From the NCBI GenBank assembly GCA_009914755.4, contig CP086569.2, positions 21,248,001 to 21,312,000 of the forward strand: a DNA stretch of 64,000 nt. The letters are read 5' to 3'. Shown piece by piece: positions 24,521 to 43,275 of this stretch. The translations under genes were made by a program, and so were the position numbers. The stretch comes from the human T2T-CHM13v2.0 reference genome, Homo sapiens. Each line of letters starts with the position of its first letter. Position 1 is the first letter of the stretch. Below the pieces are notes generated by a model that was not told where the DNA came from, searched no databases, and worked only from the letters and a program-made list of their open reading frames with translations.

Positions 24521-25529
24521 AATAAGACACTAGATATTACTCTAAATAACAACGTTTATTTTAAAGAATAGTTCAAAGTCCAAGTATTAGATAATTTGTT
24601 ACAAAGCAGCAGAGATTGATGGATCAATAAAATATTCACATTCAATGTATATTCATTTTGTAGTGACATTATTTGAAATGATTTGTGTGAATATTATTGA
24701 TATAATTAAAGTTATATTACTGAATAATACTTTATTTCTACTGTTTATGTAAAGCATGCAATTGATTGTTTATGTTAATCTCATCTATATTAGGTGAGCA
24801 TCATTCCCATCATCTCTCCAATAGAATATTGAAGGCACTGGCCTGAACAATGTATCATGACAATCCAAATGGTAGTGCTGTTTTGCTTTATTTACAGAAG
24901 TGTTGTAAGTCATGCATAAATTAGGTGTTCAGAGAATCATTCTTCTGAATTAAAATAGGACACCAAAACAGCTTGACATTTAGAAATAAATATTTTTACC
25001 AACTGATCATTAAGAAAAATGTCTGGCCAGTCCATTAACATTCTGATTCATCTTCATATTGGTATAGAAACAATGAACAAATCTACACAAATATTAGATG
25101 AATATTCAGATAACTTCCCTCTCATAGGACATAGATTCATTGTATGTTTAGTATTGTAAGTACATAGCCTCAGCTTAAAAAAAAAGGCATATTTTTATAT
25201 AGATCATGGTGGCAGTGGAACAAAAATACTTCTTTAGTGTTTGTAGGTCATTGAGAATAGAGTGGATTTTGAAATGCTTTACTTAGTGTAGCTTACATTT
25301 GATTTGATTAGAACTTAATTTGTTTTAATAAATAAAACTGATATTTTTAATTTATCAGCATGGCTTAATATTGAATGCTGTGTTATTCTATCAAAATTTT
25401 AACCGAATCCACCTTGCTCTAGGTTCTCATGCCATATAGTAATGACATATGATTGAGTAATATAGTCCAATGCTATGTTTATATTGTTTTTATTCTAAAT
25501 GATGAGAAACCCAAAAGAATTTAGAGGAC

Positions 25530-26130
25530 TTGGCCTGGGGCTAATAAGTGGCTGATGTGATGATTCATAGAGGCTGATTATCTTGGCCCAAGACCTATCA
25601 AGAGGTGAAGTGACAGCTTGTCCCAGGACCTTGGCCTAGGACCAGTTAGGGGCTTAAATGATGATTCATAGAGGCTGGACTCACAGTTTTAAAAAAGGGA
25701 AGAAATGTTTCCACCAGAACCCACCAGAGCTCACTGTACCCATGCCCACAAAAGAAAAAGCTTTTCTTCTGGGAGCTGACTGAGTGTACAAAGGACAAAG
25801 GTATTTCTATGACAGGCCTTCCTCTTTTATGTGTGTGAGCCAAAGGTTTCTGCAAAGTTTTATCTAAATAGGCCAGAGGTTTTTCTACCTGCACAGTCAC
25901 AGGCATGTCTCCAGACACAACTCTTTGTGCCAGAAGTTCCCTTATTGGTGCCTGTAGCTTGTACTTTTTTTTCCAGGCTGATTTTTATTATGTGAGAATG
26001 AGGCACTGACCCATGGGTCAGAGGCTTTCTGGGCAAGCTAGCTTACTCTTTTGGGTCGCCCCTTAGAAGTGGAGACCCTAACTGCTTTTAGGGAGATCGA
26101 GCATTGATCTTTCTGCCTACTTCCTGATGA
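25530..26130 (-). mobile_element. ERV LTR copy A (putative 3' LTR of a very old class-I ERV); about 75% identical to copies B and C
   Basis: Colinear with 35545-36130 and 39705-40270. Example: ...tgattcatagaggctggactcacag ... cccactgt(ac/gt)c(c/t)catgcccacaaaagaaaaag ... acaaaggacaaagg(t/c)atttct(a/g)tg(a/t)cag ... gtgagccaa(a/g)g(g/t)tt ... tg(c/t)(a/g)cagtcacaggcat / tgtgtagccatgagcat ... gagaatgaggcactgacccatgg / gaaatgagacactgacacatgg. Confidence 0.7.
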
Positions 26131-27610
26131 AGAAGGGGGTTGAGTAAAAAACAGCTGCTAAGATTCTTACTTAGGTTGGTTTAAGTGTCCTCAGAAGAAA
26201 GGTTCACTTATGCCATGGTTCTAGTTGCATTACCATTTAGATTTGGATAGTCTCTATTTGAAAAGAAACAATTTAAATACTTAGAGGGCATGTATTAAAA
26301 TAAGAAAATGGGGATAAGGACAGCCTAAGAATTCTGAGGCTGCTGACATGCCTTGATAACTGGTGCCTACAGATATGCTTGTTAACATTTGAGTGCATGG
26401 GGCTTTGCTTTGGTTCCCTTCCTTGGTCTCAATCTTCCAAACAGAAAACTCTTGGTTATGGGCACCCTGTTTACTCCCATTACCTGGCAAGACATATAGG
26501 ATAATTGCCCTAGTATTGGAGTTCTTATCCCATATTTTTACATTGCCCATTCCTTTCTGTCAACTCTGAGCTACAGCCAGAAATTGCTGGTTGGCTCACT
26601 GAAATAACCATGGTTAATCTAAAATGTAGGCAAACACTTAACAACAACTGAGACTAAAAGTCAATGACAGCTGTATGATAAGTTTTGAAACATAATCTCT
26701 CTCTTTCCAGTCCTATTTAAAAAAAAAAGAAAAACATAATAGCACTGAGCTTTTGTGAAATAGACTTTAGTCTTATACTTGGATTAATTATTTGCATAAA
26801 GTGCAGCAAGAACAATCACCTCCACACAGGCCTTTTTGATTGGCTTTGATGGAATTCTGTTTCATAAGAAATCTCAGATTGGACTTTGAAAAGCCAAGCC
26901 CAGCCATAGGTTTGTATCTTCAAATACCTGTGAGTTGAGTAAACTCTCCTCTTCTTTAGGTTTCAAGAGAATAGGTTTCCTGAGCCTACTAGAAAGTGAC
27001 ATTCTATGCTCACTGCAGGCCAGGAACTCTGTAAGGGGACTGTTTAGACAAGGTATGAGGCCAGTTTTTCCAGGAGGCTTTTATATTCTCTGCAACTTAA
27101 GCTTGATTCCTTAAAGAGAAACACATCCTTCCAGACAAAGCATTGGTAAAACAACCAGTTTTTTTTTTTTTCAATTGCATCGTGTTGTAAAAGAAAATGG
27201 ATTCTTGTTGCACTGATGCAAACAACCATATTGTTTTAATTTAATAATATTCATAACTACTTTTCAAATTCTAGAGTAACTAGGCAGAGAAACAAACATG
27301 TCTCAATTTTTGTTCATATTTTTAAGACTTGCTCAAGTGTTAAAAGCTTTTAAGAAAGTTTACTTGATTGCTGAAAAATAAAATGAGGATCAGCAATATT
27401 TCAAGCAGAAGTCAAAAATCTTGCTTCAGTTTTGTACTTGTTTAGCTCATTCCATTAATGCTTGTTCTACTTCATATTCGTAAACATTTTAGCTTTTTAT
27501 GAGTTCTGCATATTTTCTCTTATCAGAAACCTGCATTTGAGAGAACCTGTTAAATTTCCATGGCTGATTATAAACCATCTTTGGAAGGAAATTAAAATAA
27601 GACAACAGAG

Positions 27611-27894
27611 ACCAGGCATGGTGGCTCACACCTGTAATCCCAGCACTTTGGGAGGCTATGGGGGGCAGATCATGAGGTCAGGAGATTGAGACTATCCTGG
27701 CTAACACGGTGAAACCCCGTCTCTGCTAAAAATACAAAAGAATTATCTGGGCATGGTGGTGGGTGCCTGTAGTCCTAGCTACTTGGGAGGATGAGTCAGG
27801 AGAATGGCATGAACGCTGGAGGCGGAACTTTCAGTGAGCCGAGATCACGCCACTCCACTCTAGCCTGGATGACACAACAAAACTCCATCTCAAA

Positions 27895-27925
<31 letters not shown>

Positions 27926-27932
27926 AGTAAGT
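27611..27932 (+). mobile_element. Alu (+) with an (AAAT)n-expanded tail
   Basis: gaccaggcatggtggctcacacctgtaatcccagcactttgggaggc ... gcctgtagtcctagctacttgggaggatgagtcaggagaatggcatgaacgctggaggcggaactttcagtgagccgagatcacgccactccactctagcctggatgacacaacaaaactccatctc then aaataaataaataaataaataaataaataaag. Confidence 0.9.
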
Positions 27933-28294
27933 AAGACAGACAACAACTGTGTGTAAGTGACAAAATGTCCAGGGTTGTTGAAGCCAGAAACATTATGAAA
28001 AAAGAAATTTGATTATTTCTGCAATTTATAATAATCCAACTTAATAACCTTAATTGTGATTGACAACAAACATTCAGGAAATAAAACCTAAGACATCCCA
28101 GACTTTTTGAAACACAGGGGACTTCTGTAGCAACCAAAAGCCAGCGGGCAGGAAATACAAACTTGACACTGAAGATTTATGTTGGAAAACCTGTAAAAGG
28201 TGTTAGAAATGTAAAACGCTTAATATTATAAAATAGAATTTCAAATTACTATGAGTTGTTGGCTTTGCCAAAATAAGTGAAAAAAAATTGAAAA

Positions 28295-29690
28295 CACAAA
28301 AACATTTTGTATTCATCTGTTTTCATGCTGCTGACAAAACATACACAAGACTGGGCAGTTTACAAAACAAAAGATTAGAGGACTCAACAGTTCCACATAG
28401 CTGGGGAAGCCTCAAAAATCACGGTGGAAGTCAAGGCACATCTCACATGGAAACACATAACAGAAGAGAGTTCGTGCAGGGAAACTCCCACTTACAGAAC
28501 CATCAAGACTCACTCCCATCATTCAATTACCTCCCACAGGATTTCTCCCACAACTAGTGGGAGTTCAAAATGAAATTTTGGTGGGAACAGAGCCAAATCA
28601 TGTTATTCCGCCTTTGGCCAGTCCCAAATCTCTTGTCCTCATATTTCAAAACTAGTCATGCCTTCAGAAAAGTCCCCTAAAGTATTAACTCATTTCAACA
28701 TTAACTTAAATGTCTACAGTCCAAAGTCTCCACTAGACAAGCCAACTCGCTTATACTTGTGATTCTATAAAATTAAAAGCAAGTTTGTTGCTTCCTAGAT
28801 GTAATGGGGTAACAGGAATTGGGTAAACACAGCTATTCTAAATAGGATAAATTAGCCAAAACAAAGGGGCTACAGGCCTCAGGCAAGTCCAAAATCCAGT
28901 GGGGTAGTAAAATCTTAAAGCTTCAAACTAATCTCTTTGACTACATGTCTCATATCCAAGTCATGCTGATGCAAGAGGTGGGCTACCATGGCTTTGGGCA
29001 GCTGCACCCCTGTGGCACTGCAGAATATAGCCTCCCCCTGGCTGCTTTCATGAACTGGTATTTAGAGTCTGTGACTTTTCTAGGTGCACAAAGCAAGCTG
29101 TTGGTGAATGTACCATTCTGGGGCCTGGAGAATGGTGGCCCTCTTCTCACAGCTCCACGAGGTAGTGCCTCAGTAGGGACTATTTCTCAGGGATCCCTCC
29201 CCATATTTTCCTTCCATAACTGCGGTTGCAGAGGTTTTCCATGAGCACCACATCCCTGAAGCAAACTTCTGCCTAAACATGCTGGCATTTCCATATATCC
29301 TCTGAAATGTAGACTGAGGTTCCCAAATCTCAATTCTTTACTTCTGTGCTCTTGTGGGCTCAACACCACATGGAAGCTGTCAAGGATTGAGGCTTTCAAT
29401 ATCTGAAGCCACAGCTCAAGCTGTATCTTGGCCTCTTTTAGTCACAGCTGGAGTGGCTGGGATGCAGGACACCAAGTTCCTAGACTGCACACAGCAGAGG
29501 GACCCTGGGCCTCACACATGAAACCATTTTTTCCTGTTAGGTCTTTGAGTTTGTGATAGGAACAGCTGCCACAGTGGTCTCTGACATGGCCTGGAGACAT
29601 TTACCTCATTGTGTTGGGGATTAACATTTGGCTCCTTACAACTTTCACTAAAAATACATTTTATTTTTGTGTAGTTTGCATTTAAATCTA
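28295..29690 (-). mobile_element. MaLR (THE1/MST-like) element: 3' LTR (28295-28615) plus internal region (28616-about 29690) in reverse complement. Its 5' side is disrupted by the following L1 fragment.
   Basis: LTR: ttttcatgctgctgacaaaacatacacaagactgggcagtttacaaaacaaaagattagaggactcaacagttccacatagctggggaagcctcaa.aatcacggtggaagtcaaggcacatctcacatgg ... cccatcattcaattacctcccacagg.tttctcccacaac.agtgggagttcaaaatgaaattttggtgggaacagagccaaatcatgtta (rc of the THE1-type LTR). Internal: gcctttggccagtcccaaatctcttgtcctcatatttcaaaactagtcatgccttc ... tgcagaggttttccatgagcaccacatccctgaagcaaacttctgcctaaacatgctggcatttccatatatcctctgaaatgtagactgaggttcccaaatctc... (rc of the THE1/MST internal sequence). Confidence 0.8.
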
Positions 29691-29733
29691 TTTTCAGTGC
29701 TTTTTATTACATATTATATTAGAAATTCATAGA

Positions 29734-30432
29734 AATTTTTTTCTTTTTTTATTATACTTTAAGTTCTAGGGTACGTGTGCACAACGTGCAGGTTTAACTA
29801 GGTATACGTGTGCCATGTTGGTTTGCTGCACCCTCAACTCGTCATTTACACTATGTATTTCTCTTAATGCTATCCCTCCCCCAACTTCCCACCCCCTGAC
29901 AGGACCCAATGTGTGACGTTCCCCACCCTGTGTTCATGTGTTCTCATTGTTCGATTCCCCCTTATGAGTGAGAACATGCGCTGTTTCGTTTTCTGTCCTT
30001 ATAATAGTTTGCAGAGAATTGTGGCTTCCAGCTTTGCCCATGTCCCTGCAAAGGACATGAGTTCATCCTTTTTTATGGCTGCATAGTATTCCATGATGCA
30101 TATGTGCCACATTTTCTTAATCCAGTCTATGATTGATGGACATTTGGGTTGGTTCCAAGTCTTTGCTATTGTGAATAGTGCTGCAGTAGACATACGTATG
30201 CATGTGTCTTTATAGCAGCATGATTTTTAATCCTTTGGGTATATACCCAGTAATGAGATCTCTGGGTCAAATGGTATTTCTAGTTCTAGATCCTTGAGTA
30301 ATTGCCATACTGTCTTCCACATGGTTGAACTAATTTACATTCCCACTAACAGTGTAAAAGCATTCCAATTACTCTACATCCTCTCCAGCATCTGTTGTTT
30401 CCCGACTTTTTAATGAGCACCATTTTAACTCG
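29734..30432 (-). mobile_element. L1PA-type 3' end fragment (3'UTR and ORF2 C-terminus, reverse complement) inserted into the MaLR element
   Basis: T-rich run then tattatactttaagttctagggtacgtgtgcacaacgtgcaggtttaactaggtatacgtgtgccatgttggtttgctgcaccctcaactcgtcatttacactatgtatttctcttaatgctatccctccccc ... ttatggctgcatagtattccatgatgcatatgtgccacattttcttaatccagtctatgattgatggacatttgggttggttccaagtctttgctattgtgaatagtgctgcagtagacatacgtatgcatgtgtctttatagcagcatgattt... Confidence 0.85.
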
Positions 30433-31959
30433 AATTAAAAACCTAGTAAGTTGTTTTTATTATGTGCTAGGTGCAGATACAGTCTTACTTCTTTCAGCAT
30501 AGTTAGGATTGTGCTTACTTTTATATGTCCTCCAATGTTACTGGTAGTGAATGAGGCAAGGTGACAGTTTTTAAAAGTCAAAGAAGTAGTTTGAAATCTT
30601 AAAACTTTTAGCAACATAGCATCTGTCCTACATAATTTACACAATCTATTTAAATCTTGCAGACATTTGCATTTTAACAATAATCTTCAAAGGTGTTTTT
30701 ACTTTACAAAAATTAAAGTCATATGGACTGAAAAGTACCACACCCTTTATCTTTCCTTTAAAATTATTTGATTTGAGCCCATATACTTTTTTAATTAACT
30801 AGAGCTCTTTTTAAATAGATATCACACACATAACACCTATATAACCACAGAGACCAGTAGAAGATTTTGTAGTTATACAATCTCTAGTTGGTCAGTTTCC
30901 CAACTGGATTATTGGCCTCCATGTGAAGTCCTTTAAGAACTGGGTGAGGAATAAAGTTACCAAGGTCTAGTAAACAAGCATAGCCCGAAGACAAAGAGAT
31001 TTTGAGAGATAATTATTCATATGTAACTTCAGTCGTTTAAGAAGGCAAACAAGATTTGTGCTGCCTTTTCTGTTTTCTCAGGGAGCCACAGGCCACCAGA
31101 AGTGATCCCAGGGCCTTTATTCCAGGCATCAAGAGTGGCAAGATAAAGTGGAGGAAAGTAATTCTATCACCTGAGGAAAAATCCTTTTCCATAAAACAAG
31201 ACCTATGAAGACAGAAAAATAAAGACCTTTTGAATATACCTATATATTAGATATCCACTTTTAGTTAAGCTGAATGCTATTTAAGAAAATCATTTTTCAT
31301 TAATTGAACCTTACAGAGAATATAAACAGTGATTCTGATAATTTTATTTTCTGGTTTGCATCACTACCTGTTCAGAATCATGTTAAGTTTCTCCAGTTTC
31401 CTCTGGAAAAAAAGTGTTTGGGTTCAGGCAAGGGTAGGTTTTCAATTAGACTGAAGATACCTCTAATAACAAAGCTTGATATTTGAGGAGGGATTGCTAG
31501 CCAGAGGCTTCCCTTAAAGGACAGCAGTACTGCTATACTGGGTGGGATGCAAACAGTTAAGTTATTTTATGTGGTTAACACCATAGCCTCTGGCACCAGC
31601 AAAGCCACTGCTGTAATTTCTCAGAGGCAAGTTGCCCATACTTTAGCCATCAAGTCAACTTCCTCACTTAGATAACCCACTAGTTGAGCTATAACTCAAG
31701 GCTTAGTTAAAAATCCCTGGGCTATTCTTTTTTTTTCTGATACGTAGATATTAAATACATTTTCTGTCAGAAGATTGAAGGTTGACGCTTTAAGTAAGGT
31801 TTGCTTTAGCTAGCTAAAGGCTTTGAGTTTGGGGTTCATAAATGAATTTAGGGAGATAGTTTTAGCTGCTTGAGTTTATTTTATGAAGTAGTGTAAAAGA
31901 TGAACTATTTTATTGTATTCCAGTACCCAAAATCTTCAAAATAAAATAATGCCTAAGAA

Positions 31960-34900
31960 TCCTTCTAAAAGTTAAGAAAAATGAGCTCAATTGTTTCCTC
32001 CCCTGGTGCTCTGGTTCCTTCTGGTAAGACCAGATGCAGATACTTCACTGCAGCCTAACAGAGCTTAGGTTTAGATTTGGAGACACTAAATTCCCTTCCA
32101 ACTAAGAAATTAAGAAGAGCTTTAGTGTCTTCTTGAGAAATCCATCACGATCATGCCTTGGAAAAACTGAAAGGCTGGATTAGGAAAAAAAAAGAGAGAC
32201 AAGGTCTAATGTTTAGAAGAGTGTTTACTTTGCACCCTTTTACATGCAGAATCACTTGGGACTCCTGGATATTGATGGGTGTTAGAGTCCTTGGAGCCTG
32301 CCTATCAAGCTATGTGATACAATCGTCCTGCTGGACCATCAGAAAGACTGGCTTTGAACCTGGTGATTGACATTTCCTGGGACAGTTGTACTTCCAGTAG
32401 TCTTAACAGATGGGACAAGGCTGGGGTGGCTTCTTATTGCTGTTCTGGATATCCCATTTATAGTGCCCCCACTTGCCACACCAGTAACAATTAGCAGTTG
32501 CATGTTGATGATTCCAGGTCTCATTAACACGTGAAGTGGCAACTAGTGCTTTCTTTTTTCTCTTGTGCCTCCCCTTTTCTTCCTAGGTCTCCTTCTCCTG
32601 GTACATGTTGTAAAATATTGATGAGGCTAGACCTAGGAGGTTTTCTAGGTGCTATCTGGGCTCACACTCTACTTTTGTAATTTCCTTCCAAACCAGGGAT
32701 TTCCTAGGTAGTAAACTTGTCTGTTAAGATTATGTGTCCCTCAATATGTATTAGGAGATAGAGAACTGGGCTTCACTAAAGTATACTTCTTTCCAAAGAA
32801 GCTGAGAGGTTTTCAACAGGATTTAATAAGGACAGTTAAAAGTAATTGAGAAGACTGGTTATGATTATTTGCAAGCCTTTTACTATACACATAAGAAAGT
32901 GTTTTTTTTTCACAGATCAATGGGATAACTAGGGATTCAATTAGGGTTTTTAATGGACAGTGCTTCTCTTATTAAAAATGGAGATTCTGTCTCTTTCTTA
33001 CCCTCCTTCCCTTTTTGACTGGGTTTCTCTTTGACTGCCTGTAGGAGGTCTGTTGTGTGTCTCTGAATATCTCTGCTATCTGTAGAGGTGCCTGTTTCTC
33101 TGCAACAGTTAGGATTTAGCTTAGAAGTAGCATAACGTCTCTCCACATAAGATTCAATAGTTGGGTTAGATTTTGTAAAACCTCCATATATCTATCACAA
33201 TCATTAGAGAAATTGCCTAGGTCCTCCTCTTTGTTAGAGGTTCTGCAATGAGAAGAAAACTGGAACCCTAGTAACACCATGTCCACTGAATGTTTCCCAT
33301 GGGGTAAGAATGAAGGTTCGGGTCTCTTGCTTGGCAAAACAAGAGAATCTAATGATATCATTATAGGGTTCCCTGAATAAGGGAGGCAGGTAGGATACAC
33401 ATAATTTGCTTTTGAGGGTTTCCCAAAAGTTAGTCTCTCTGACTTTGGGGAATTATATTTTGTAGTCTTGCATGATAGGGATGCCAAGAGGGCAAGGTGA
33501 ATTTGACTATGCTTACAGAAATCTGGGTTGCTTCATATAAGTAAAAAAATCTAGTTGTTGAATAGTATTAAAATTATTGCTTCCCTGAAGAGGCCAGGCC
33601 TCCTTTCCATAAGATGGCTGAGTCCCTCTGAAATAGAACATAAGCTGTGTGTTTTTTTTTTTTTTCTTCAGGGTCTGAGGGAAAAAAGAGTTAAAGAAGA
33701 ATGCACTCAAGGGAAGTGTAGTCTTCAAATTGTGTGTTACCCATCTTGAAAAGTGAAGAGAAAAGGTGTCTCTCAGTCTTCTTATTTTTTTAGATTGACC
33801 CAGAATGGAGAGAAAAATAGAGGGGTGTCCCTCCTATTCTCTTTCTTTACCCTCTGGGTCCTGGCACATTAAGGGAAGTGTGACCTTCACCCATAGCTCT
33901 GGAGCAGCTCACCAGCAGGATTTGCCATGCTGACCTGCACAAAACCCTAGCTTTTTGTCCTACTGATTTCCTAGACTCACTCAACCCAAAAGGGTCTGGT
34001 GGTACTCCAGAGACCTGAGAGAAATTAGTTTCTAGTTAAATTTTAGCAAGATTCTTTAATGAAGATAGTGCTGAATTACCATCTCTGACTTTCCTTGTTA
34101 TGGCTCCAAAAAACATCGGAATCTCAGAGAATGGGACCAGTTGACATAAAATATCTTGTTTATTTAATGCTGAATATACTTAGATGCAGATGACATGCCA
34201 CAAGACAGCATAAGATGTGCCACAAAAGAGCTGTCATTTCTTTGATGGGGACAGCAAAAAGCTTAAAATCTGTCTTTTGAGGTAACATTCTCCTAATTGT
34301 TACAAGTGGATTTATCCTGCCCCCCAAATAGGGCATGGGACATGATCACTGATAAAGGGATGTAAGAGAGAAAGTACTTAGGGGACTATAAGTTTTGAAC
34401 AAAGAGTAGGCAAGGCTCCACACAGAATAACATCCCATTTTACTAGGTGACATTGTGGGGTTAGAAATGCTAGGTAAAAACTTGGAGTTGAACTTTTTTT
34501 CAGATAAATGTTAGAAAGAGAGATTTGGGATTTCATAGGCTGTCCCTATAGTATGCTCCCTGCCAGAAGAAAATTAACTTGTTTCATAAATGAAATGTTT
34601 ACATTCATTGAACAGTGCTGAGCTTTTACATGAAAAGACAACCCAAATGAAGAGGTCTCAGAGTGAAATATTCTCTCATCCAGTGCCTGTTATTAGGGGA
34701 CTTAAAGACCCTTACTAGGTACAAATTTAGAGAGATCCTAATTTTTTCTGTTTCTAGGAAATCACAAAATGAAAAACACTTTGAGTTATATTTCCAATTA
34801 CTAGGATACTGACTGACTTTACCCAGCAAGATTATATGTCTAGGTTGCAGAACACCTCCAATATTGCATATAAAGAAGGAATAGGAGATATGATAGCCAT

Positions 34901-35544
34901 AAAAAGAAAGAAGCAAAAATTGATATAGAAAGACTGGAAGTCCTTGTGCCAAAGCCCTGATGGGCTTTCAGAAAAAAGAGTTAGTCCAAGGCCTTTAGGT
35001 AACACTGAGGTGTATCTCCAGCCAGAAACCTTCAGTTGCCCTAGGATCTTTTTTAAATCCCATGCAATGGCTAGGTTTTCTGGAAAGAAAACAGGGTCAA
35101 TACAAAGCCAACATTCCCAAAGTTTCTCTTAAGAGAAAAAAACTGAGTGTAACAAGGCTCAGAAAGTAAAAAATAAAAATAAAAATAAATTAAAAATAAA
35201 GATTCTACTTCTACTCACTCTTCTAATTAATCCCTTTCTTCCTGGCCAATGTGCCAAAATATGTTGTAGTCTCACCAATGCAACAAGATGTTTCAGTTTC
35301 TTATTCTTCTGAAATAATACCTGGAGTTCTTTGTTTCATGTCCAAGATAATAAAGGAGCATGAACACAAGGGTGAGGTTGGAATAGAATAATAGTTTAAT
35401 AATTGAAAGAAGAGAGTTCTCTGCCAGCAGAGAGGGCAGGCCTCAATAAATTGCCCACTCTGAGGCTGAGAATCAGGGATTCTATGGAAAAAGAAGGTTA
35501 AATAATGTGCTTAATTTGTTGACTGTCTTGGAAATATGACTCAG
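31960..35544 (-). mobile_element. ERV internal unit 1: leader and gag (gamma-retrovirus-like), copy 1 of a ~4.1-kb tandemly repeated LTR-leader-gag unit
   Basis: Colinear (about 70-75% identity) with 36050-39704. Gag relics are on the minus strand (see the pseudogene entries). Confidence 0.65.
32339..33487 (-). pseudogene. ERV gag relic (capsid N-terminus to nucleocapsid zinc knuckle), frameshifted
   Basis: ORF 33116..33487(-) ...NDCDRYMEVLQNLTQLLNLMWRDVMLLLS (cf. MLV CA ...[32 protein letters not shown]). ORF 32339..32542(-), read across a frameshift, gives ..NCYWCGKWGHYKWDI.. = CX2CX4HX4C nucleocapsid knuckle (cf. MLV CAYCKEKGHWAKDC). Confidence 0.6.
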
Positions 35545-36130
35545 ATTGACCCAGGGCCTTGGCCAAGGACCAGTCACACATTTTGCCTTAGACTGTGCCC
35601 AGTCCAATCAGGGGCTGAAGTGCTGATTTATAGGGACTGCTCATCTTACTGTGCTACCCATCAGGAGCTGAAGTGAAAGCTTGGCCTGGGAATATAGCCC
35701 AAAACTAATCAGCATCTGAAGTAATAATTCATAGAGGCTAGGCTCACAAACGAAAAGAAAAAGATAGCACCCACTGGAATCTACCAAAGCCCACTGTGTT
35801 CATGCCCACAAAAAGAGAAGAAACTTTTTCATGAGATGCTAATTATACAAAAGACAAAGGCATTTCTGTGTCACAGCTTGTTTCCTTATATGGGTGAGCC
35901 AGATGTTTGTGAAAGTTCTTGATTAAATGGGCTGGAGATTTCCCTGTCTGTGTAGCCATGAGCATATTTTCAGTTACAACACCCCTGTGCTATTTCCCTT
36001 ATTACTGCCTGCAGCTTGATTATTTTTTCCCAGTCAGCTTTCTATGTTATGTGGAAATGAGACACTGACACATGGTTTGGGGACTCCCTGGGGGTCCTTC
36101 CTTTACTGTCTACCAAAGGCAGGCTATTTC
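35545..36130 (-). mobile_element. ERV LTR copy B (shared between the two tandem units); carries 3-4 sub-repeats of ~45-50 bp with CCAAT-like cores at its low-coordinate end
   Basis: gggccttggccaaggaccagtcacacattttgccttagactgtgcccagtccaatcaggggctgaagtgctgatttatagggactg / ctcatcttactgtgctacccatcaggagctgaagtgaaagcttggcctgggaatatagcccaaaactaatcagcatctgaagtaataattcatagaggctagg. The LTR body is colinear with copies A and C. Confidence 0.7.
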
Positions 36131-39100
36131 TTTCCAGTGCATTTCTGAAATCAGACAGAGCTGAGCTTTTGATTGTTGGACCTATATTTCTTTTCAGCTA
36201 AGAAATTAAAAAGAGTGTTTTCCTTCCCAAGAAGTCTATCAGACTTATCCTATGAGAGGAGGGAAACCCTGAATTGGAAAGGAGAACAAAGAGACTAGCC
36301 CTGGACATTCACTTTCCTCCCTTCTAATTCCATAATCTCATGGGACTCCTGGACAGTAATGGCAGTTAGAGCTATCGGAGCTGTGGAATTGGCTCTGGGA
36401 CCCATCAGTCCTGTTGGAATATTGAGGACACTTGCCCTTGACTCAGTGACCTACATCTCCAGGGAAAGTATGACTTCTAGTGGTCTCAACAATGGGTGGA
36501 AGAAGGTGGCTTCTTCTTGCTGCCTTGGCAATCCTTATTGAATACTCCCACTTGCCACATTGATAGCAATTATCAGGTGCACTTTGGGGATTCTGGATCT
36601 CATTAGCTTGCGAAGTGGCAACTAGTGCCTCTTTTTTCTCTTGTGCTATTCCTCTTTTTCCTGTGACTTCTCCTTGTCTCTCATATATAAGACCAAGAAG
36701 GCCAAACCCAGAAGGTTTTCCAAGGTGCTATCCAGGCTCACAATCTGCTTTTTTTCTGATATTAGTGGCTGCCTGAGTAATAAACTTGTCTTTTAAGATT
36801 ATCTGTCCCTCAACTGAATTACGAGATACAGAGGTGTGTTTCACTAAAGTGTCTGTCAGCCTTTCAAAAAAGGCTGAGGGATTTTCATCTTGCTTCTGAT
36901 ATGAAAAAGGAGAGTTTAAAGTAAGTAAAAGTTTGGTTCAGGTTCTTTTCAAGCCTTACAATATGCAAATCAGAAAGTGTTTTCTTTTCCAGTGACCTAT
37001 AGATCACTAGGTTTCCAAATATGGCTTCAAAGGGGCACAACCTTTCTTTCTATTAGAAATAGAAATTCTTCTCTTTTTTACCCTATTTCCACTTTCAACT
37101 GGGTCTATTTTTTGACTGACTAAAGGAGATCTGCTGTTTTTCTTCAAATCTCTCTGCTGCCTGTAGAGATGCCTATTTCTCAGCAGCAGTTAGAGTTTGG
37201 CTTAGGAGTAACAGAACATCTCCCCATGGGAGATCAAACACTTGCATTAGATTTTGGAAAGCCTTTTTATGTCTATCACAGTCATTATAAAACTTGTTTA
37301 GGTCTGTCTGATTTTTTATAAGGAGTTGTAATGAGAAGGAAACTTGGACTCTAGTGGTACCATGTCTATAGGACATTTAGTGTAGGAGCAAGAGTGAAGT
37401 TGGAGGTTTCTTGCATGCCACAACCGCAGGAGCTGATGATAGGACTATTGAGGGCCCTGGATAATAGAGGTAGGCAGAACACCCAGAAGTTGCCTTTGAG
37501 GGTTTCTCAATGGTTTGTCTTTCTGACTTTTGGGAATTATATTTTGTAGGCTTGCCTGATATGGCTGCAAAGAGGTCAGAGTGAATTTTACAATGCTTAC
37601 AAAAATCTGGATTTCATTGGAGATTAAAAAGAAAAAAGCTAGTTCTTTAATGTCATTGAAATTAATGCTACCCTGAACAGTCTAGGCCTCCTTTCCCTAA
37701 GATGAACATACAAGCCCCATAAATAGAATATATACTGTGAAATGTAATATAAACTGCTTTTTCTTTAGGGTCTGAGTGTTAAGAGTTAAAGAAGAATGTG
37801 CTCAAGGAGAGTACAGACCACAGATGTTCTGTCACACATCTAGAAAAATGTGGAGAAAATGTGCTATCTTTCTCTTTTCTCTTTTCAGAATGACCCAGGG
37901 TGGAGAGAAAGTTAGAGGGGTATCCCATTATGCAAGCATATCCATCCTTGGATCCAGATGAGCTAGCTGGAAGGATTAGCCATGGTCACCTGCACAAAGC
38001 CCTAGATTTTTACCCGGCTGATTTCCTAGACTAACTTAACCCCAAAGGATCTCAAAGTACCCCAGAAGCCCAGGAGAAATTGGGTACTAGTTAAATTTTG
38101 GCAAGACTTATTAATGATGGGAGTCTCTTAATACAATTTCTGGCTCCCCCTGATATGACCCCAGGAAAACATTGGAATATCAGAGAATGGGACCAATTGA
38201 CATGCAAATATAAAATATCTTGTTTAAATTCCAGTGTACCTGGATGCAAAACAGATGCCTCAAAAGAGCATTGAGGAGTGTATGGATTGAATGACTGTCG
38301 TTTCTATGATGGGGACAGCAAAAAGGCTAAAATATGTCCTTTAAGGGTGGCTTCCTCCCAACTATTACAAATGGAATTATCCTGCCTACAAATAGGCCAT
38401 GAGACATGATTACTGACAAAGGGATGTAAGATAGAAGATAATTAGAAACTAGATGTTTTGGAGAAAGTGTAGACAAGGCTTCCCACAGAGAAAAAATCTA
38501 ATTTTACTAGGTGGCCATTTGGGATTGAAATGCTAGGTAAAATTCTGACTTGAAATTTTTTTCAGGTAACTATTACAAAGAGAGGTCTGGGTTTTGATAG
38601 GGTGTCCCCATAACATGCCCCCAGTATAAAAAAAAATTTATAAAAAAATGTTTAGATTCATTGTACAGTTCTGGGCTTTTACAGCAAGTGAAGAAACAGC
38701 CCATATGAAGAGGAGGGTATTCACTCAGGGTAAACTATTATCTCATCCACTGCCATGAATGTTTATTATTGAGGGACAGAAAGGCCTGAACTATGTAAAA
38801 CATTAGAGAAATCCTAATTTTTTTCTGTTGCTAGGAAATCACAAAAACAAAAATTCTTTGTTACATTCCTGATTACCAAGACATTGACTGACTTTATCAG
38901 ACAAGTTTATGTCTCTAAATTGCAAAAACACACAGAACATTTCTTACAACAGAGGTATAGTAGACATAATAGCCACAAGAAGAAAGAAGGAAAATATGAT
39001 AAAATGACTGGAAGTTATTGTGCTGGTGCTCCAATGGGCTCTTGGGAACTGGAATTAGTTGAAGGGCCTTCAGGTAACATTGAGTTGTAGGCTCAGTCCC

Positions 39101-39704
39101 AAGCCTCAGTTGCCCTAGGACCACTTTCTAATCCCATGTGATGGCTAGGCCTTCTGTGAAGGGAATCTGAATTATAATAGAGCCAAAATTCAAACATCTG
39201 GGAGTAATTGGGGAATTGATAAAGTCCTCTGCAGCAAGCTTTTCCCCTGAGTCTTAAGGCTGACATTGATGTTAATTATTTTTAAATGGCTGACATGGTT
39301 CCAGTGTTTTGTCAGCTCTGGAGATTAAAAACTTAGGACAAGAACCTCAGAAAGTGGAGTGTTAAAGATCCACTCCTAATCACCCTTCTGATAAATTCCT
39401 TCTTACCCAGACCATGCATCAAAGTATGTTGTAGTCTCACTAATGTACCAAGACAAAACAGTCTCTCATTGTCTGAGATAATACGCAGAGTTCTTTGTCC
39501 TATGACCAAGATAGCTAAGAAGCGGGGACACAAGGGTGAGGTTGGAGCAAATGTTTAATAAATGAAAGAAAAAATCTCTCCACCAGCAAAAAGTGGAGGA
39601 CTGTATGGGTTTAAGCCATGGTGTCATGGTCTAGGGTTCTTATGGACTGGGAAGAAAAATGAATATGCTTTGTCTTCTGGATGTCTTGGAGACTTCATGG
39701 CTCA
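36131..39704 (-). mobile_element. ERV internal unit 2 (leader and gag only), tandem copy of unit 1; it ends directly against LTR copy B
   Basis: Colinear with 31960-35544 throughout. Examples: ...atctcatgggactcctggacagtaatggcagttagagc ~ atcacttgggactcctggatattgatgggtgttagagtcc; cttgtctttctgacttttgggaattatattttgtaggcttgcctgat ~ ttagtctctctgactttggggaattatattttgtagtcttgcatgat. Confidence 0.65.
36440..37400 (-). pseudogene. ERV gag relic, copy 2
   Basis: ORF 37173..37376(-) ...FYNDCDRHKKAFQNLMQVFDLPWGDVLLLLSQTLTAAEK (gamma-retroviral capsid W-DD..LL..TLLT..EEK motif). Zinc-knuckle remnant in the rc of 36535-36580 (..DNCYQCGKWEYS..). Confidence 0.55.
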
Positions 39705-40270
39705 GCTTTGCATAAAATCAGAAAGCATGGGCCAGGACCAATCAGCAGCTGATGAAACAATTTATAGAGGCTGTTATTTTGGCCTGGGATTTATCTAGAG
39801 CTGAAGTTATAGCTTGGCCCAAAAACTTACTCCTGGACCAATCAAGAGCTGACATGAAAATTTATAGAGCCCAGCCTCACAATTCAAAAAGAAAAGAAAA
39901 GTTCCCACTGAAACTTACTGGAGTCCACTGTGTTCAAGCCAACAAAAGGAGAATAAACTTATTACTGGGAGCCAGCTGATTACACAAAGGACAAAAGCTT
40001 TTCTATGCCAGGCTTTTTAAATTTATCTGAGTTATCTTATTTATCTGGAGGCTTGTGCAAGTTTTTATGTGAATGGGCTGGAGATTCTCCTCTCTGTGCA
40101 GCCAGTGGCATGCCTACAGTAACAACCCATGTGCTAGTTAACCTATAAGTTCCTGAAGCTTGATTTCTTTTCCCTGGCTGCTTTTTGAGTTATGTAGGAA
40201 TGAGGTCCTGTCGCATACATCAGGGGCCCTCTAGGAACCCCTCTCTTGGTTTCTACCTAATGCAAGTAAC
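39705..40270 (-). mobile_element. ERV LTR copy C (5' LTR of the upstream partial unit), with CCAAT-containing sub-repeats
   Basis: catgggccaggaccaatcagcagctgatgaaacaatttatagaggctg / ttattttggcctgggatttatctagagctgaagttatagcttggcccaaaaacttactcctggaccaatcaagagctgacatgaaaatttatagagcccagcctcac ... then the body is colinear with LTR copies A and B. Confidence 0.7.
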
Positions 40271-40379
40271 CCCTCTCAGCATAATGGTGACACTATTATA
40301 TTCTACCCAATAATCAAATATTACATCTATTAATCTTTTGTCATGTGTTTCATATATTATTAAATAAAAATAAATAAAT

Positions 40380-40495
40380 TAGTATCTGTTTTAAATTAAA
40401 TTATTATATTGATTATATTGATTATATTGAATTATATTATTAAATTAAATTATTATATTGAATTATCTGTAATAAATTAAATTATTACATGAGCG
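40380..40495. repeat. AT-rich minisatellite (about 25-40-bp units: aaattaaattattatattgaattat variants)
   Basis: aaattaaattattatattgattatattgattatattgaattatattattaaattaaattattatattgaattatctgtaataaattaaattattacatg. Confidence 0.7.
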
Positions 40496-43275
40496 TAACT
40501 AGCTTATGTGTAAAGTTATCAATGGAAGCACCGAAAGGAAGAAATATATTAAGATGCAAGAAGGCAATAAAGGCTATATTTTTTAGTCAGATTTTATTTA
40601 ATTTACAGAAATGTTTATTAAATTTTCTGTCATGATTTTTACCTCAACACATGGCTTCTAATATAATTTACCTGTTAACTCATGGATAAACTGTTACTTC
40701 AGAATTGAAGAGCCTCTTTAATTTAGCATGTGCTTAAATTGCTGGCCCCATCCTGCATATTACTGATTCAGCTGCTGTGAACTTTGGTCAAAAAATATGT
40801 CTTTTTTTTTCCAAGTTCTCAGGTGTTTTCAATGCTGCTAGCCAATGGAAACCAGTTGCAGGACCAATGGCTGGGTGCATATTTATTGATTTCATCTGCA
40901 GTAAAAATATTGACCCAGAGGGTATGCAGTCAAATACACAAGAGACCATTTTTGATTTTAAGTGGACACAGGTCTTACTCATAGTAATGTAAAAGTGGGG
41001 CCAAATATATCAGAATTATTTAATTTTGATTTTGAGGGGTTGATAAAATCTGGTTTTATGTTGAAAGCCTGAATATTGTTCTTGGCCTACGTTAGTCAGT
41101 TAAATATTCAGTTGGGGCCTATGTATTTGGTCTGGGCTGGAACTGAAATTGTGAAGTTTTATGCACTGAATATCTGGTCTGTGTGAACACATCTGGATGG
41201 GTCACTGAGAGTGCAATGGGTGAAATAATTCAATAATACAATTCTTTCTATAATTATAAATCCTTCTATTGCTGTGATGGTTACATGGGAGTGATGTGGG
41301 GATATGGTGGTGGAGACAATGAAGGTTTAGGAGCATAGAATCACACCCAGGCTTGGAAAAGATGTTACATCTCTGAACTCTGTTCTTTACTCCAGTGTAA
41401 GCCTCTTCAGGGTCCTCGTTATATAATTAGCAAAATCTCACAGAGGGGGCTGCAGATTTTGATATTACAGAAAAAAACATGCATCATAGAGTTGGCTCCA
41501 CATATCCTTAGACCTTTTCTATTCTCTCTTGTTTTACTAGCTTTGAAATTTTCCTTCAGTTGACACTCTCAGTGTTATAGTATAAAATCTATGCTGCTTA
41601 TTTATTAGGTGAAATTATATAAATGAACTACTCACATATGTAATTATATTTCTAACATTATAAATTGGTTTGAGAACTTTTAAATTTTAGGTCTTATTTG
41701 TTTCTATTTTAAATAATTTGACAATTTTTATTGATTTTTGATATACTAGAATATTTTTTAAATAAATTTTTCTCATACAATTAATTACAATACATACTCT
41801 GTATGTGATTTTGACTTTGCTTCTGTTAAAATTTTTGGAAAAAAACATTCAAATGTATCATTATTATTGTAAATATCTCTTAGGTATAATTTTACAGTTA
41901 TTATAAAAGATTTCTCAATAATTCTCATGTAAGTCTATTGCTTCATTTTGGTAAATTCATAAAGAAATTTTCATTTGTTATTTATTTTTTCTATTTTTTA
42001 GTTTCCATAGCACATCAATAATTTATTCTTTGTGTTTCAAACGTTCAATTATACTTTCTTAGTTATTTTACAATGAACAATTAAATTGCCTTCACTACAG
42101 ACACCATGTTGAGCTAGCAAATACTGGGTCTTACTTATTATTTAAATTTTTGCAGCCACTAGCCATCCACTCTTCCCTCTAACCCCACCAACTACTCTTA
42201 CCAGCATCTGACAATCATCCTTTCTTTTTCTAACTCTCTTACTTCAATTGTTTCACTTGTTAGATCTCAGAAATAAGTGAGAACATACAATATTTGTCTT
42301 TCTCTACCTCTGTTATTTCACATAACATAATGATTTCCAGTTCTATCCATGTTGTTACAAATGACAGGATCATATTTTATTTTATGGCTTAATAGTACTC
42401 CACTGTATATATGCAACAGATTTTATTGATCAGTTCCTCAGTTAGTAGACATAGGTTTCTTCCAAATCTCAGTTATTGTTAATAGTGCTGCAATAAACAT
42501 GAAAGTTCAGATATCACTTCAATATAATGACTTTATTTCTTTTGATTATATACCCAGCAGTGGGATTGTTGGCCATACAGTAGCTCTATTTTTAGTTTTT
42601 GAGAAAGTTTCAAACTGTTCCCCATAGAGGTTATACTGATTCACATTCTTACAGTGTTGGAGGGTTCCTTTTCTCCAAATCCTCAAGAGCATTTGTTATT
42701 GCCTGTGTTTTGGATAAAAGTCATTTTAAGTGGAGAGAGATAATAAGTAATTGTCATTTTGATTAACAGTTCTCTGATAATGATGTTGATGACCATTTCC
42801 CATGCCAGTTTTCCATTTGTACACCTTATGAGAAATTAGTATTCAAGTCTTTTGTCCATTTTATATGAGATTATTATATTTTTTCTATGAAGTTCTTTGA
42901 AATTCTTATATATTATGGCTATCAGTCCCTTGCCAGATGACTGGTTTTGAAATTGTTTTTCTAATTCTGTGGGGTTTTTTCCACTTTGTTGATTTTTTTA
43001 TTTGCTTTGCAGAGCCTTTTAAACTTGATGTGATTTTGTTTGTTAATTTTTGCTTTGTTTTACTTTTCCTGTGTTGTATTGCTCGAGCAATTTTTGCTGA
43101 GTTCAATGACTGGGAGAGTTTTCCATATGTTTTCTTGTTTCACAGTTTCATAGTTTCAGGATTCAGATTTAAGTCTTTAGTACAGTCTGATTCGATTTTT
43201 ATATATAGTGAGAGATAGGGGTCTGCTTTCATTCTTCTGCCTGTAGATATTCAGTTTTCATAGCACCACTTCTTG

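What the first reader, a model, noticed from the sequence alone, without database searches (positions are those of the whole stretch)
25530..40270. Very old gamma-retrovirus-like ERV with three diverged LTR copies and a tandemly repeated LTR-leader-gag unit
Three ~0.6-kb LTR copies (25530-26130, 35545-36130, 39705-40270) are mutually about 75% identical. Two ~4.1-kb units, each = gag plus leader plus LTR (31960-36050 and 36050-40150 approximately), are colinear at about 70-75% identity. Gag (capsid W-DD..LL..TLLT..EEK motif and CX2CX4HX4C nucleocapsid knuckle) reads on the minus strand in both units. That gives, 5'>3' on the minus strand, LTR(C)-leader-gag | LTR(B)-leader-gag-[about 5.8 kb holding Alu, MaLR and L1PA insertions plus about 3 kb unassigned]-LTR(A). 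So there is a provirus-like locus (B...A) plus an upstream partial copy that has only LTR-leader-gag and ends flush against LTR B. About 130 bp at 31960-32110 also resembles the U3-side edge of the LTR, so the repeat unit boundary lies inside or at the LTR edge. Possible origins: (a) ancient tandem duplication of the 5' part of a provirus (or unequal recombination); (b) two related proviruses, one inserted into the other just after gag followed by deletion. I do not see the expected pol-env-LTR remainder downstream of LTR A, which argues against (b).
Basis: partly seen in the sequence, partly recalled or inferred. Interest (0 to 1): 0.5.

Follow-up and report, generated by a model that had tools for sequence, protein, structure and literature searches.

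The report
Two stacked copies of an ancient retrovirus
This is a heavily decayed, very old gamma-type endogenous retrovirus locus in which a half-length copy sits directly in front of a fuller copy, probably because one provirus landed inside another; it is an ordinary genomic fossil with no sign of function.

Summary
The core observation is real. On the minus strand, two colinear 4.1-kb units (40290-36146 and 36145-32063) are 71% identical over 3950 aligned bases. A third LTR copy lies at 26068-25527. Several details needed correction:
- The LTRs of B and C are about 0.87 kb (U3-R-U5), each followed by a tRNA-Gly-type primer binding site. LTR A is U3 only.
- LTR identities are 64-69%, not 75%.
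- Each unit holds LTR, PBS, a 1.5-kb leader, gag, a protease stub and a reverse-transcriptase (RT) thumb stub. Both units share one ~0.9-kb pro-RT deletion.
- The "130 bp LTR-like" segment is RT sequence, not LTR. RT continues to 31347 and ERV-internal sequence to 30431.

Unit 1 stops in RT within about a dozen bases of LTR B's 5' edge. Unit 2 has roughly 35-50% more private substitutions than unit 1. The two units are no closer to each other than to other genomic copies of the family.

Best reading (about 0.55): provirus 2 integrated, in the same orientation, into the RT of provirus 1, and the displaced 3' half was later lost. Main rival (about 0.25): an in-situ tandem duplication. Either way this is an ordinary ERV fossil of low interest.

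The parts
39427..40292 (-). LTR C: complete 5' LTR of the upstream (partial) provirus, about 0.86 kb. The 5' edge is at 40281 or 40292. It has two ~100-bp repeats with an inverted CCAAT and TATAAAT-like boxes (39867, 39767), and ATTAAA at about 39558.
39404..39421 (-). Decayed primer binding site of unit 1 (TGATGCATGGTCTGGGTA, 13/18 to the tRNA-Gly-GCC PBS), at the position homologous to the unit 2 PBS.
37831..39403 (-). Leader of unit 1, about 1.5 kb. It is typical of the family: other genomic copies (L060, L064, L057) share it.
36400..37830 (-). gag of unit 1, with many stops and frameshifts. Capsid to nucleocapsid is confirmed at 37442-36408.
36145..36399 (-). Protease N-terminal stub joined at about 36240-36229 to an RT thumb stub. 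The stub ends at 36145 (GATTTCAG). Eight bases of uncertain origin (36144-36137) follow before the LTR B TG.
35262..36136 (-). LTR B: complete LTR of about 0.875 kb, the 5' LTR of the downstream provirus. It carries an extra 27-bp partial copy of the repeat motif.
35239..35256 (-). Primer binding site of unit 2: TGGCACATTGGCCAGGAA, 15/18 to the tRNA-Gly-GCC PBS. All three mismatches are transitions.
33736..35238 (-). Leader of unit 2.
32317..33735 (-). gag of unit 2. A matrix-like N-terminus lies at 33728-33540 and capsid to nucleocapsid at 33304-32325.
32147..32316 (-). Protease N-terminal stub of unit 2 (ESQVILHVKGCKVNTLLNIRPCLSF, resembling MLV [25 protein letters not shown]). It ends at the same ~0.9-kb deletion junction as in unit 1.
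31347..32146 (-). RT thumb and connection domain, corresponding to MLV PR-RT residues about 360-625. Only the first ~90 bp are duplicated in unit 1.
30431..31346 (-). Further ERV-internal sequence, 65% identical to another family copy (L060 2840-3694). By eye there are only faint RNase H remnants. It is cut off by the L1 insertion.
29735..30430 (-). Later insertion: an L1 3' end (ORF2 C-terminus [14 protein letters not shown]), 83-86% identical to other L1 ends in the window.
28900..29600 (.). It looks THE1/MST-like by eye only and was not verified with a library.
   Evidence: by eye
27348..28093 (.). Another interspersed repeat (matches 54366-54773), split by an Alu at 27612-27930 that has an (AAAT)n tail at 27892-27926.
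25527..26078 (-). LTR A: the U3 part only (about 0.55 kb), preceded by a purine-rich tract. It ends 36 nt after its second TATA-like box. No R-U5 follows.

Best explanation
Two proviruses of one old class I (gamma-like) ERV lineage lie head to tail on the minus strand. The lineage uses a tRNA-Gly primer binding site and carries a ~0.9-kb protease-to-RT-palm deletion.

Proposed sequence of events:
1. Provirus 1 (LTR C - leader - gag - PR stub - RT ...) integrated first.
2. Provirus 2 (LTR B - leader - gag - PR stub - RT thumb/connection ...) then integrated, in the same orientation, into the RT thumb of provirus 1. This made an integrase-type junction of RT sequence against the 5' edge of LTR B.
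3. The displaced 3' half of provirus 1 (rest of pol, env, LTR) was later lost. This happened either by homologous recombination between the two co-oriented 3' halves or by the deletion that also cut LTR A down to its U3.
4. Everything then decayed neutrally and received L1, Alu and other insertions.

What is shown: the anatomy, the junction position, the shared deletion, the truncation of LTR A, and the unequal private divergence of the two units.

What is inferred: the order of events and the way the remainder was lost.

No present function is indicated. All reading frames are broken.
For: 1. **Junction position.** Unit 1 matches the RT of relatives up to GATTTCAG (36145). LTR B homology to LTR C is clear from 36123, with a candidate TG at 36136. 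The junction therefore sits within about a dozen bases of a complete LTR 5' end. A random duplication breakpoint would fall there less than about 1% of the time (my estimate).
2. **No homology to drive unequal crossover.** Similarity between the LTR start and the RT region is not above chance.
3. **Relative-rate tests.** Unit 2 has more private changes than unit 1 with every outgroup.
   - gag, consensus outgroup: 76 vs 115 (p=0.006); 77 vs 127 and 83 vs 117.
   - leader, outgroup L060: 49 vs 80 (p=0.008).
   - LTRs, with A as outgroup: C 65 vs B 82.
   - Summing the most conservative sets gives 174 vs 235.
   - The excess is spread over 8 of 9 bins. It is mostly transitions, while transversions are about equal, which argues against misalignment.
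   - Copies made in place should have equal branches.
4. **Star-like phylogeny.** The units are not closer to each other (72.4% in gag) than unit 1 is to other family copies L053 and L076 (77%). Quartet counts are 8/5/4.
5. **Evidence of a deletion at the right place.** LTR A is truncated at 25527 and no second pol or LTR copy exists elsewhere in the window.
6. **Precedent.** Secondary integrations are described as a common source of mosaic HERVs (PMC4724089).
Against: - Both units share the same PR|RT deletion junction. None of the 73 other related loci sampled has it; the closest relatives L053, L076, L060 and L026 carry different deletions. Two independent integrations therefore need this deleted variant to have been a propagating lineage, which is unproven.
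- The downstream side of the supposed insertion (target-site duplication, remainder of provirus 1) is gone, so the model needs a second event.
- The relative-rate asymmetry is weak when only same-family outgroups are used in gag (60 vs 73, p=0.30).
- The three LTRs are equidistant within error (unique changes A 83, B 82, C 65; p=0.26), so they do not show which LTRs are a pair.
- The LTR 5' end cannot be placed to the base. Eight bases (36144-36137) are unassigned.
Confidence: 0.55

Rival explanations
1. In-situ tandem duplication. A single provirus that already carried the PR-RT deletion had its 5' 4.1 kb (LTR to RT thumb) duplicated at the DNA level. This would be by unequal sister-chromatid exchange or replication slippage, very soon after integration.
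For: - The units are colinear over 3950 bases with the same private deletion junction, and that junction is absent from all 73 sampled relatives.
- Unit-to-unit divergence (K2P 0.375) is about the same as LTR-to-LTR divergence, which fits one origin.
- There is no remainder of a second provirus.
- Quartets give a slight, non-significant plurality for unit 1 + unit 2 (8 vs 5 vs 4).
Against: - The left breakpoint would have to fall by chance within about a dozen bases of the LTR 5' edge, with no flanking host DNA carried along. There is no homology between the LTR start and RT to guide it.
- Adjacent copies of equal age should have equal private divergence, but unit 2 has 35-60% more.
- There is no measurable shared history of the two units apart from other family copies, so the duplication would have to coincide with integration.
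Confidence: 0.25
2. Autointegration product. During one infection, integrase joined the U3 end of a viral DNA to an internal site (the RT thumb) of viral DNA, giving a 4.1-kb circle (LTR - leader - gag - RT stub). That circle then recombined homologously with a sibling provirus or viral DNA and added one extra unit.
For: It would explain together the integrase-type RT|LTR-edge junction, the identical private deletion in both units, the star-like timing and the absence of any remainder.
Against: - It does not explain the unequal private divergence of the units.
- It needs a rare circle-by-homologous-recombination step in the germ line. To my knowledge there is no precedent in mammalian ERVs.
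- It is not distinguishable from the other models with this one locus.
Confidence: 0.05
3. Two independent neighbouring insertions. A younger provirus (C, unit 1) landed just upstream of an older one (B...A). An unrelated deletion then removed everything from its RT thumb to the edge of LTR B.
For: The branch lengths fit an older B/A pair and a younger C: LTR unique changes are A 83, B 82, C 65, and unit 1 is less diverged than unit 2.
Against: - It needs a deletion ending by chance at the LTR B edge.
- A-B is the least similar LTR pair (64.2% against 67%), although this is within error.
- It requires the same private deletion in both proviruses, as in the main model.
Confidence: 0.08

Closest known systems
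Mosaic HERV proviruses with a secondary integration (Vargiu et al. 2016, Retrovirology 13:7, PMC4724089)
   Same: An extra LTR-bearing element sits inside another provirus. The LTR edge abuts internal (pol) sequence. This is described as a common cause of non-canonical HERV chains.
   Different: - Here the insert belongs to the same family, lies in the same orientation and carries the same internal deletion as its host.
- The displaced 3' half of the host is missing, so the locus looks like a tandem partial duplication.
- The downstream junction and target-site duplication cannot be shown.
Tandem proviruses sharing a central LTR, made by unequal LTR-LTR recombination (for example HERV-K HML-2 at 7p22; from my own knowledge)
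   Same: Three LTRs in one orientation with repeated internal sequence between them.
   Different: In those, both internal regions are complete and the upstream one ends with its PPT against the central LTR. Here the upstream unit ends inside the RT thumb (36145), which LTR-LTR exchange cannot produce.
HERV-H / HERV-F supergroup (HERVHF) and old MER-type class I ERVs
   Same: - Gag capsid and nucleocapsid are 45-60% identical to abundant human HERV Gag ORFs (P0001-P0003).
- A second CPxCxxxHW motif follows the zinc knuckle in those relatives.
- There is a long leader.
- Copies with internal gag-pol deletions are frequent.
   Different: - It is much older: about 30% divergence between copies, against 1-12% LTR divergence reported for that supergroup.
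- The PBS fits tRNA-Gly rather than His or Phe.
- The exact Repbase/Dfam family could not be determined with these tools.
Moloney murine leukaemia virus (gammaretrovirus prototype)
   Same: - Gag p30 major homology region.
- Protease start motif.
- RT thumb and connection align at 30-40% identity, E=6e-17.
   Different: - Protease core and RT fingers/palm are deleted.
- No integrase or env is detectable.
- The LTR is larger (0.87 kb) with a long R.
- The PBS is a different type.

Membership tests
Class I (gammaretrovirus-like) endogenous retrovirus | Gag capsid of the p30 type (Pfam PF02093) | tested here: met
   The stitched unit-1 Gag finds 21 proteins, nearly all with PF02093, best E=1.7e-42. 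P0001 scores 78 bits on Gag_p30. The window sequence itself scores only 17.5 bits (E=0.003), below the Pfam cut-off, because of decay.
Class I (gammaretrovirus-like) endogenous retrovirus | Nucleocapsid CX2CX4HX4C zinc knuckle | tested here: inconclusive
   The motif is decayed: CYWCGKWGHYKWD(I) in unit 2 and CYQCGKWEYSIRI in unit 1. It is intact in homologues P0002, P0003 and P0014 (PF00098).
Class I (gammaretrovirus-like) endogenous retrovirus | MLV-like reverse transcriptase | tested here: met
   Thumb and connection only: 32135-31404 against MLV PR-RT residues 362-610, E=6e-17; E=6e-29 with P0022. The fingers/palm with YVDD are deleted in both units.
Class I (gammaretrovirus-like) endogenous retrovirus | Integrase and env present | tested here: not met
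   No hit with MLV IN or TM, with relatives' RNase H, IN or TM fragments, or with Pfam on the masked frames. This may reflect decay or deletion. The sensitivity of these searches is limited.
Class I (gammaretrovirus-like) endogenous retrovirus | Direct LTRs with a tRNA primer binding site just after the 5' LTR | tested here: met
   Three co-oriented LTRs. The PBS is 15/18 to tRNA-Gly-GCC at 35256, and 13/18 at the homologous site 39421.
Class I (gammaretrovirus-like) endogenous retrovirus | 4-bp target-site duplication flanking the provirus | not testable with these tools
   LTR A lacks its 3' end, and the LTR C 5' end is uncertain by about 11 bases.
Tandem provirus by unequal LTR-LTR recombination | The upstream internal region is complete and ends with its PPT against the central LTR | tested here: not met
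   Unit 1 ends in the RT thumb at 36145, directly before LTR B.
Secondary (nested) proviral integration | A complete LTR end of the insert is joined to internal sequence of the host element | tested here: met
   RT homology runs to 36145. The candidate LTR B TG is at 36136 and clear LTR homology starts at 36123. The resolution is about a dozen bases.
Secondary (nested) proviral integration | Host-element sequence resumes after the insert, with a target-site duplication | tested here: not met
   There is no second pol or LTR copy anywhere in the 64-kb window. LTR A is truncated, so a later loss has to be assumed.
In-situ tandem (segmental) duplication | The two copies are each other's closest relatives and have equal private divergence | tested here: not met
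   Unit 1 to unit 2 is 72.4% identical, against 77% for unit 1 to L053/L076. Quartets are star-like. Private changes are 76 vs 115, 49 vs 80 and 65 vs 82. The asymmetry is weaker with same-family outgroups only (60 vs 73).
A named Repbase/Dfam HERV family | Match of the LTR and internal sequence to a family consensus | not testable with these tools
   No repeat library is available. The nearest sampled relatives are unnamed human contaminant contigs L053, L076, L064 and L060.

The most novel reading that the evidence does not exclude
The 4.1-kb extra unit could be a germ-line fossil of retroviral autointegration. In that reading, a circle made when integrase joined the U3 end to the RT region of viral DNA was later added to a sibling provirus by homologous recombination. 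This would explain, in one infection event, the integrase-type RT|LTR junction, the identical private deletion and the lack of any remainder.
Probability: 0.04. Interest if true: 0.55.

Novelty: new member of a known kind. Interest (0 to 1): 0.15.

Why it matters
It matters little for biology. All frames are broken, no exaptation signal was seen, and mosaic or nested HERV loci are common. Its modest value is as a worked example. A locus that looks like a tandem duplication of LTR-leader-gag can be separated into competing origins using the position of the junction relative to the LTR end and relative-rate tests against other family copies. If a genome-wide survey confirmed the lineage, it would also document an old non-autonomous class I ERV with a tRNA-Gly-type PBS and a specific protease-RT deletion.

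Tried and rejected
- **Pfam on raw translations.** On X-masked frames it gave only a weak Gag_p30 hit (E=0.074) and nothing for 26000-32160. It is too insensitive for this degree of decay.
- **Rfam on the whole window.** No match.
- **Search for a third leader/gag copy or the missing 3' half.** nhmmer with a profile of the two units, and blastn/nhmmer with the pol part, found nothing beyond LTR A.
- **MLV IN and TM, and relatives' RNase H, IN and TM fragments, against 26000-31500.** Nothing significant beyond 31347. Their positive hits validate themselves, and they hit many related loci correctly. Their negative results carry less weight.
- **Second protein search with the RT stretch.** It returned only four short ORFs and no long Pol.
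- **LTR-like reading of 32062-31960.** Rejected by shuffle tests.
- **Extension of LTR A beyond 25527.** The MAFFT-suggested TTTATTTATTAAA match is AT-rich noise.
- **APOBEC-type G-to-A excess in unit 2 as proof of a separate reverse transcription.** Not seen: G>A is 18 vs 19.
- **Subfamily split (unit 1 with L053/L076, unit 2 with L064/L060).** Single-locus quartets suggested it. It vanished with stricter pair-consensus quartets.
- **A shared 5-bp "insertion" in gag as a shared frameshift.** It is family-wide, since L053, L076 and L064 also have it.
- **The same PR|RT junction in L072 and L047.** The apparent alignment across the junction was a spurious extension. Both loci have normal protease.
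- **Pairing of the LTRs by branch lengths.** No significant resolution.
- **Literature.** Nothing useful found for a tRNA-Gly HERV or for the origin of the B7-H6 Gag-like domain.
Full report

Yes in its core. A self-comparison of 24000-42000 gives two long colinear direct matches. 32058-35116 pairs with 36155-39191 (70.3% over 3141 columns, E=0), and 35197-36061 pairs with 39363-40204. There are 20 in-register repeat families with a spacing of 4055-4165 bases. A full alignment of the two units gives 71.0% identity over 3950 aligned positions, K2P distance 0.375, and this is fairly even across LTR, leader and gag.

A third LTR copy at about 25527-26078 matches both others.

**2. Anatomy (minus strand, 5' to 3')**

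*Gag.* A stitched conceptual translation of unit 1 finds 21 database proteins, best E=1.7e-42, almost all carrying Pfam Gag_p30. These map back by tblastn to 37442-36408 and 33304-32325, with a matrix-like N-terminus at 33728-33540. The window sequence alone reaches only 17.5 bits on Gag_p30 because of decay. Its homologue P0001 reaches 78 bits.

*LTR extent.* After the part of the LTR shared with copy A, units B and C continue for about 270 more bases. This stretch holds an ATTAAA signal. It ends at TGGCACATTGGCCAGGAA (35256-35239), which matches the PBS for tRNA-Gly-GCC at 15 of 18 positions, with only transition mismatches. The homologous site in unit 1 (39421-39404) matches at 13/18.

The true LTRs of B and C are therefore about 0.87 kb (U3-R-U5). 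Each has two ~100-bp repeats carrying an inverted CCAAT and a TATAAAT-like box.

LTR A covers only the U3 part. It ends at 25527, 36 bases after its second TATA-like box. Nothing downstream resembles R-U5.

*Pro and pol.* After the nucleocapsid, both units read a protease start (ESQVILHVKGCKVNTLLNIRPCLSF in unit 2). They then jump to the RT thumb. Database ORFs P0022-P0025 extend this to 31347 with E=6e-29.

About 0.9 kb (protease core plus RT fingers and palm) is therefore missing. The same junction occurs in both units, at about 36240-36229 and 32146-32135.

*End of unit 1.* Unit 1 carries only the first ~90 bases of the RT thumb. It matches the RT of relatives up to GATTTCAG (36145) and then passes into LTR B.

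*Rest of unit 2.* Unit 2 runs on through the RT connection. ERV-internal DNA continues to 30431, since another family copy, L060, is 65% identical over 31295-30423. There an L1 3' end (29735-30430) is inserted.

Further down lie a GC-richer block that looks MaLR-like by eye (not verified) and an Alu (27612-27930) that splits another repeat at 27348-28093, which matches 54366-54773. About 2 kb remains unassigned, in which I found no integrase or env.

**3.

It is not LTR. 32110-32063 is the RT stub common to both units. 32062-31960 is RT coding sequence. Local alignment of that stretch against the first 150-170 bases of LTRs A, B and C scores at the mean of shuffled controls. A second test on the first 60 bases after the breakpoint gives p=0.4-0.9 against relatives' RT, 0.10 against unit 2 RT and 0.04 against LTR C.

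The repeat boundary is thus in the RT thumb. LTR B begins within about a dozen bases of it. Eight bases, 36144-36137, cannot be assigned.

**4. Relatives**

One scan of metagenome contigs with a Gag alignment returned 73 loci, mostly human contamination in skin and gut metagenomes.

- Most belong to abundant, younger HERV-H-like groups.
- Four (L053, L076, L064, L060) share family-specific features with the window units, such as the CCCAGT insertion in gag.
- In gag, unit 1 is 77% identical to L053 and L076 but only 72.4% identical to unit 2.
- Strict quartets (unit 1, unit 2, L053+L076, L064+L060) give 8/5/4 informative sites, which is a star.
- Internal deletions are frequent and varied in these relatives. 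L053 and L076 join capsid to RT residue 323. L026 joins gag to RT residue 362. L039 joins gag to TM. Others have an intact protease.
- None of the 73 loci has the junction seen in the window units.

**5. Origin**

Two facts argue against a simple in-place duplication.

First, the junction is at a complete, or nearly complete, LTR 5' end, with no flanking DNA carried along and no homology between the two partners. That is what integrase produces. It is what a random breakpoint would rarely produce.

Second, copies made in place must have equal private divergence, yet unit 2 has more with every outgroup:
- gag, consensus outgroup: 76 vs 115, p=0.006.
- gag, with outgroup segments selected using either unit: 77 vs 127 and 83 vs 117.
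- The excess is spread over 8 of 9 100-base bins.
- leader, outgroup L060: 49 vs 80, p=0.008.
- LTRs, with A as outgroup: C 65 vs B 82.
- With only same-family outgroups in gag the asymmetry is weak (60 vs 73, p=0.30).
- Summing the most conservative sets gives 174 vs 235. By my own normal approximation that is p of about 0.003.
- The excess is mainly transitions, with transversions about equal. This argues against misalignment.

I therefore favour a same-orientation secondary integration of provirus 2 into the RT of provirus 1. Provirus 2 would come from a slightly more evolved member of the same deleted lineage.

The missing 3' half of provirus 1 is then explained in one of two ways. One is recombination between the two long co-oriented 3' halves, the same process that makes solo LTRs.

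The main point against my reading is the shared deletion junction, which I could not find in any other copy. If it is private to this locus, in-place duplication becomes more likely, as does re-integration of the locus's own transcript.

The three LTRs are equidistant within error (unique changes A 83, B 82, C 65; p=0.26). They do not tell which two are a pair.

**6. Age**

Private divergence from the family node is roughly 12% for unit 1 and 16% for unit 2 in gag (star decomposition of the identities). LTR-to-LTR raw divergence is 33-36%. With a neutral rate of about 2.2e-9 per site per year (general knowledge), this is of the order of 60-100 million years. That is at the old end of class I HERVs. 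Vargiu et al. report 17-32% LTR divergence for the oldest groups.

**7. Comparison with known things and verdict**

- The element works like, and passes the testable criteria for, a class I gamma-like ERV.
- It fails the test for a tandem provirus made by LTR-LTR exchange, because unit 1 ends in RT.
- It meets the upstream-junction criterion of a secondary integration, but not the downstream one.
- It does not behave like a clean in-place duplication.
- The exact Repbase/Dfam family cannot be named with the tools available.

Mosaic HERVs caused by secondary integration are described as common (PMC4724089). This is an ordinary, non-functional fossil, and interest is low.

The most novel reading not excluded is that the extra unit descends from an autointegration circle that recombined with a sibling provirus. 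I give it a few percent.

Noticed in passing
protein P0005; maps to window 33728-32379 and 37310-36449: One Gag homologue is a 318-aa protein annotated by NCBI as "Natural cytotoxicity triggering receptor 3 ligand 1" (B7-H6) in the titi monkey Plecturocebus cupreus. It is essentially a matrix-capsid-nucleocapsid Gag ORF. B7-H6 is known, from my memory, to have a Gag-like C-terminal domain, so that domain may derive from this ERV supergroup, or the annotation may be a spill-over. A literature search gave nothing useful.
   Followed up: partly
window 25527-25570: LTR A stops 36 bases after its second TATA-like box, about where the U3/R boundary (transcription start) is expected. It is therefore a U3-only LTR. 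An AATAAA lies about 35 bases further on, in unrelated AT-rich DNA. I could not tell whether the breakpoint at the U3/R border is chance or meaningful.
   Followed up: partly
window 32146-32124 and 36240-36222; L072 about 1340-1360; L053 about 705-725: The protease-to-RT deletion junction lies at a short motif (TCTCA[A/G]GA) that occurs both in the intact protease of a relative (L072 ...CATCTCAGGAAAA...) and at the RT thumb start of relatives (L053/L076 ...GGTCTCAGGAGG...). This is the kind of microhomology expected for a template-switch deletion during reverse transcription.
   Followed up: partly
loci L053 (539-604), L076 (about 796-798), L026 (806-913), L039 (748-754), L061 (1341-1343): Related human ERV copies carry a variety of different internal joins: capsid to RT palm, gag to RT thumb, gag to env TM, and RT residue 281 to 362. 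Three of these restart at or near MLV PR-RT residue 362, the same place as in the window units.
   Followed up: partly
window 35640-35560 compared with 39770-39725: LTR B has an extra 27-bp partial copy of the CTGATTGG...GGCCAAG repeat motif relative to LTRs A and C, so the ~100-bp U3 repeat array varies in copy number between the LTRs.
   Followed up: no
window 27348-27607 + 27937-28093 and 54366-54773: An unidentified interspersed repeat of at least 410 bp occurs twice in the window (72-77% identity). The copy inside the ERV is split by the Alu at 27612-27930.
   Followed up: no
window 536-1232, 6414-8335, 29735-30430, 56316-57005, 58734-60058: Several L1 3'-end fragments are 83-87% identical to each other. 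The window as a whole is AT-rich and L1-rich (GC 27-34% outside the ERV).
   Followed up: no
window 40391-40487 and 23362-23858: An AT-rich tandem repeat (periods 9-32) lies about 100 bases upstream of LTR C. A diverged tandem duplication with an ~84-base offset lies at 23362-23808 (68% identity).
   Followed up: no
locus L060 4230-5156: The metagenome contig L060 joins human ERV sequence to a 308-aa intact ORF that looks bacterial (membrane protein). It is probably a chimeric assembly. Only its ERV part was used.
   Followed up: no
gag alignment, window 37410-36550 against 33330-32470: The excess private changes of unit 2 are concentrated in C>T (32 vs 12), T>C (18 vs 4) and A>G (22 vs 12) on the sense strand. 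G>A is equal (18 vs 19) and transversions are about equal. The cause of this spectrum is unexplained.
   Followed up: partly
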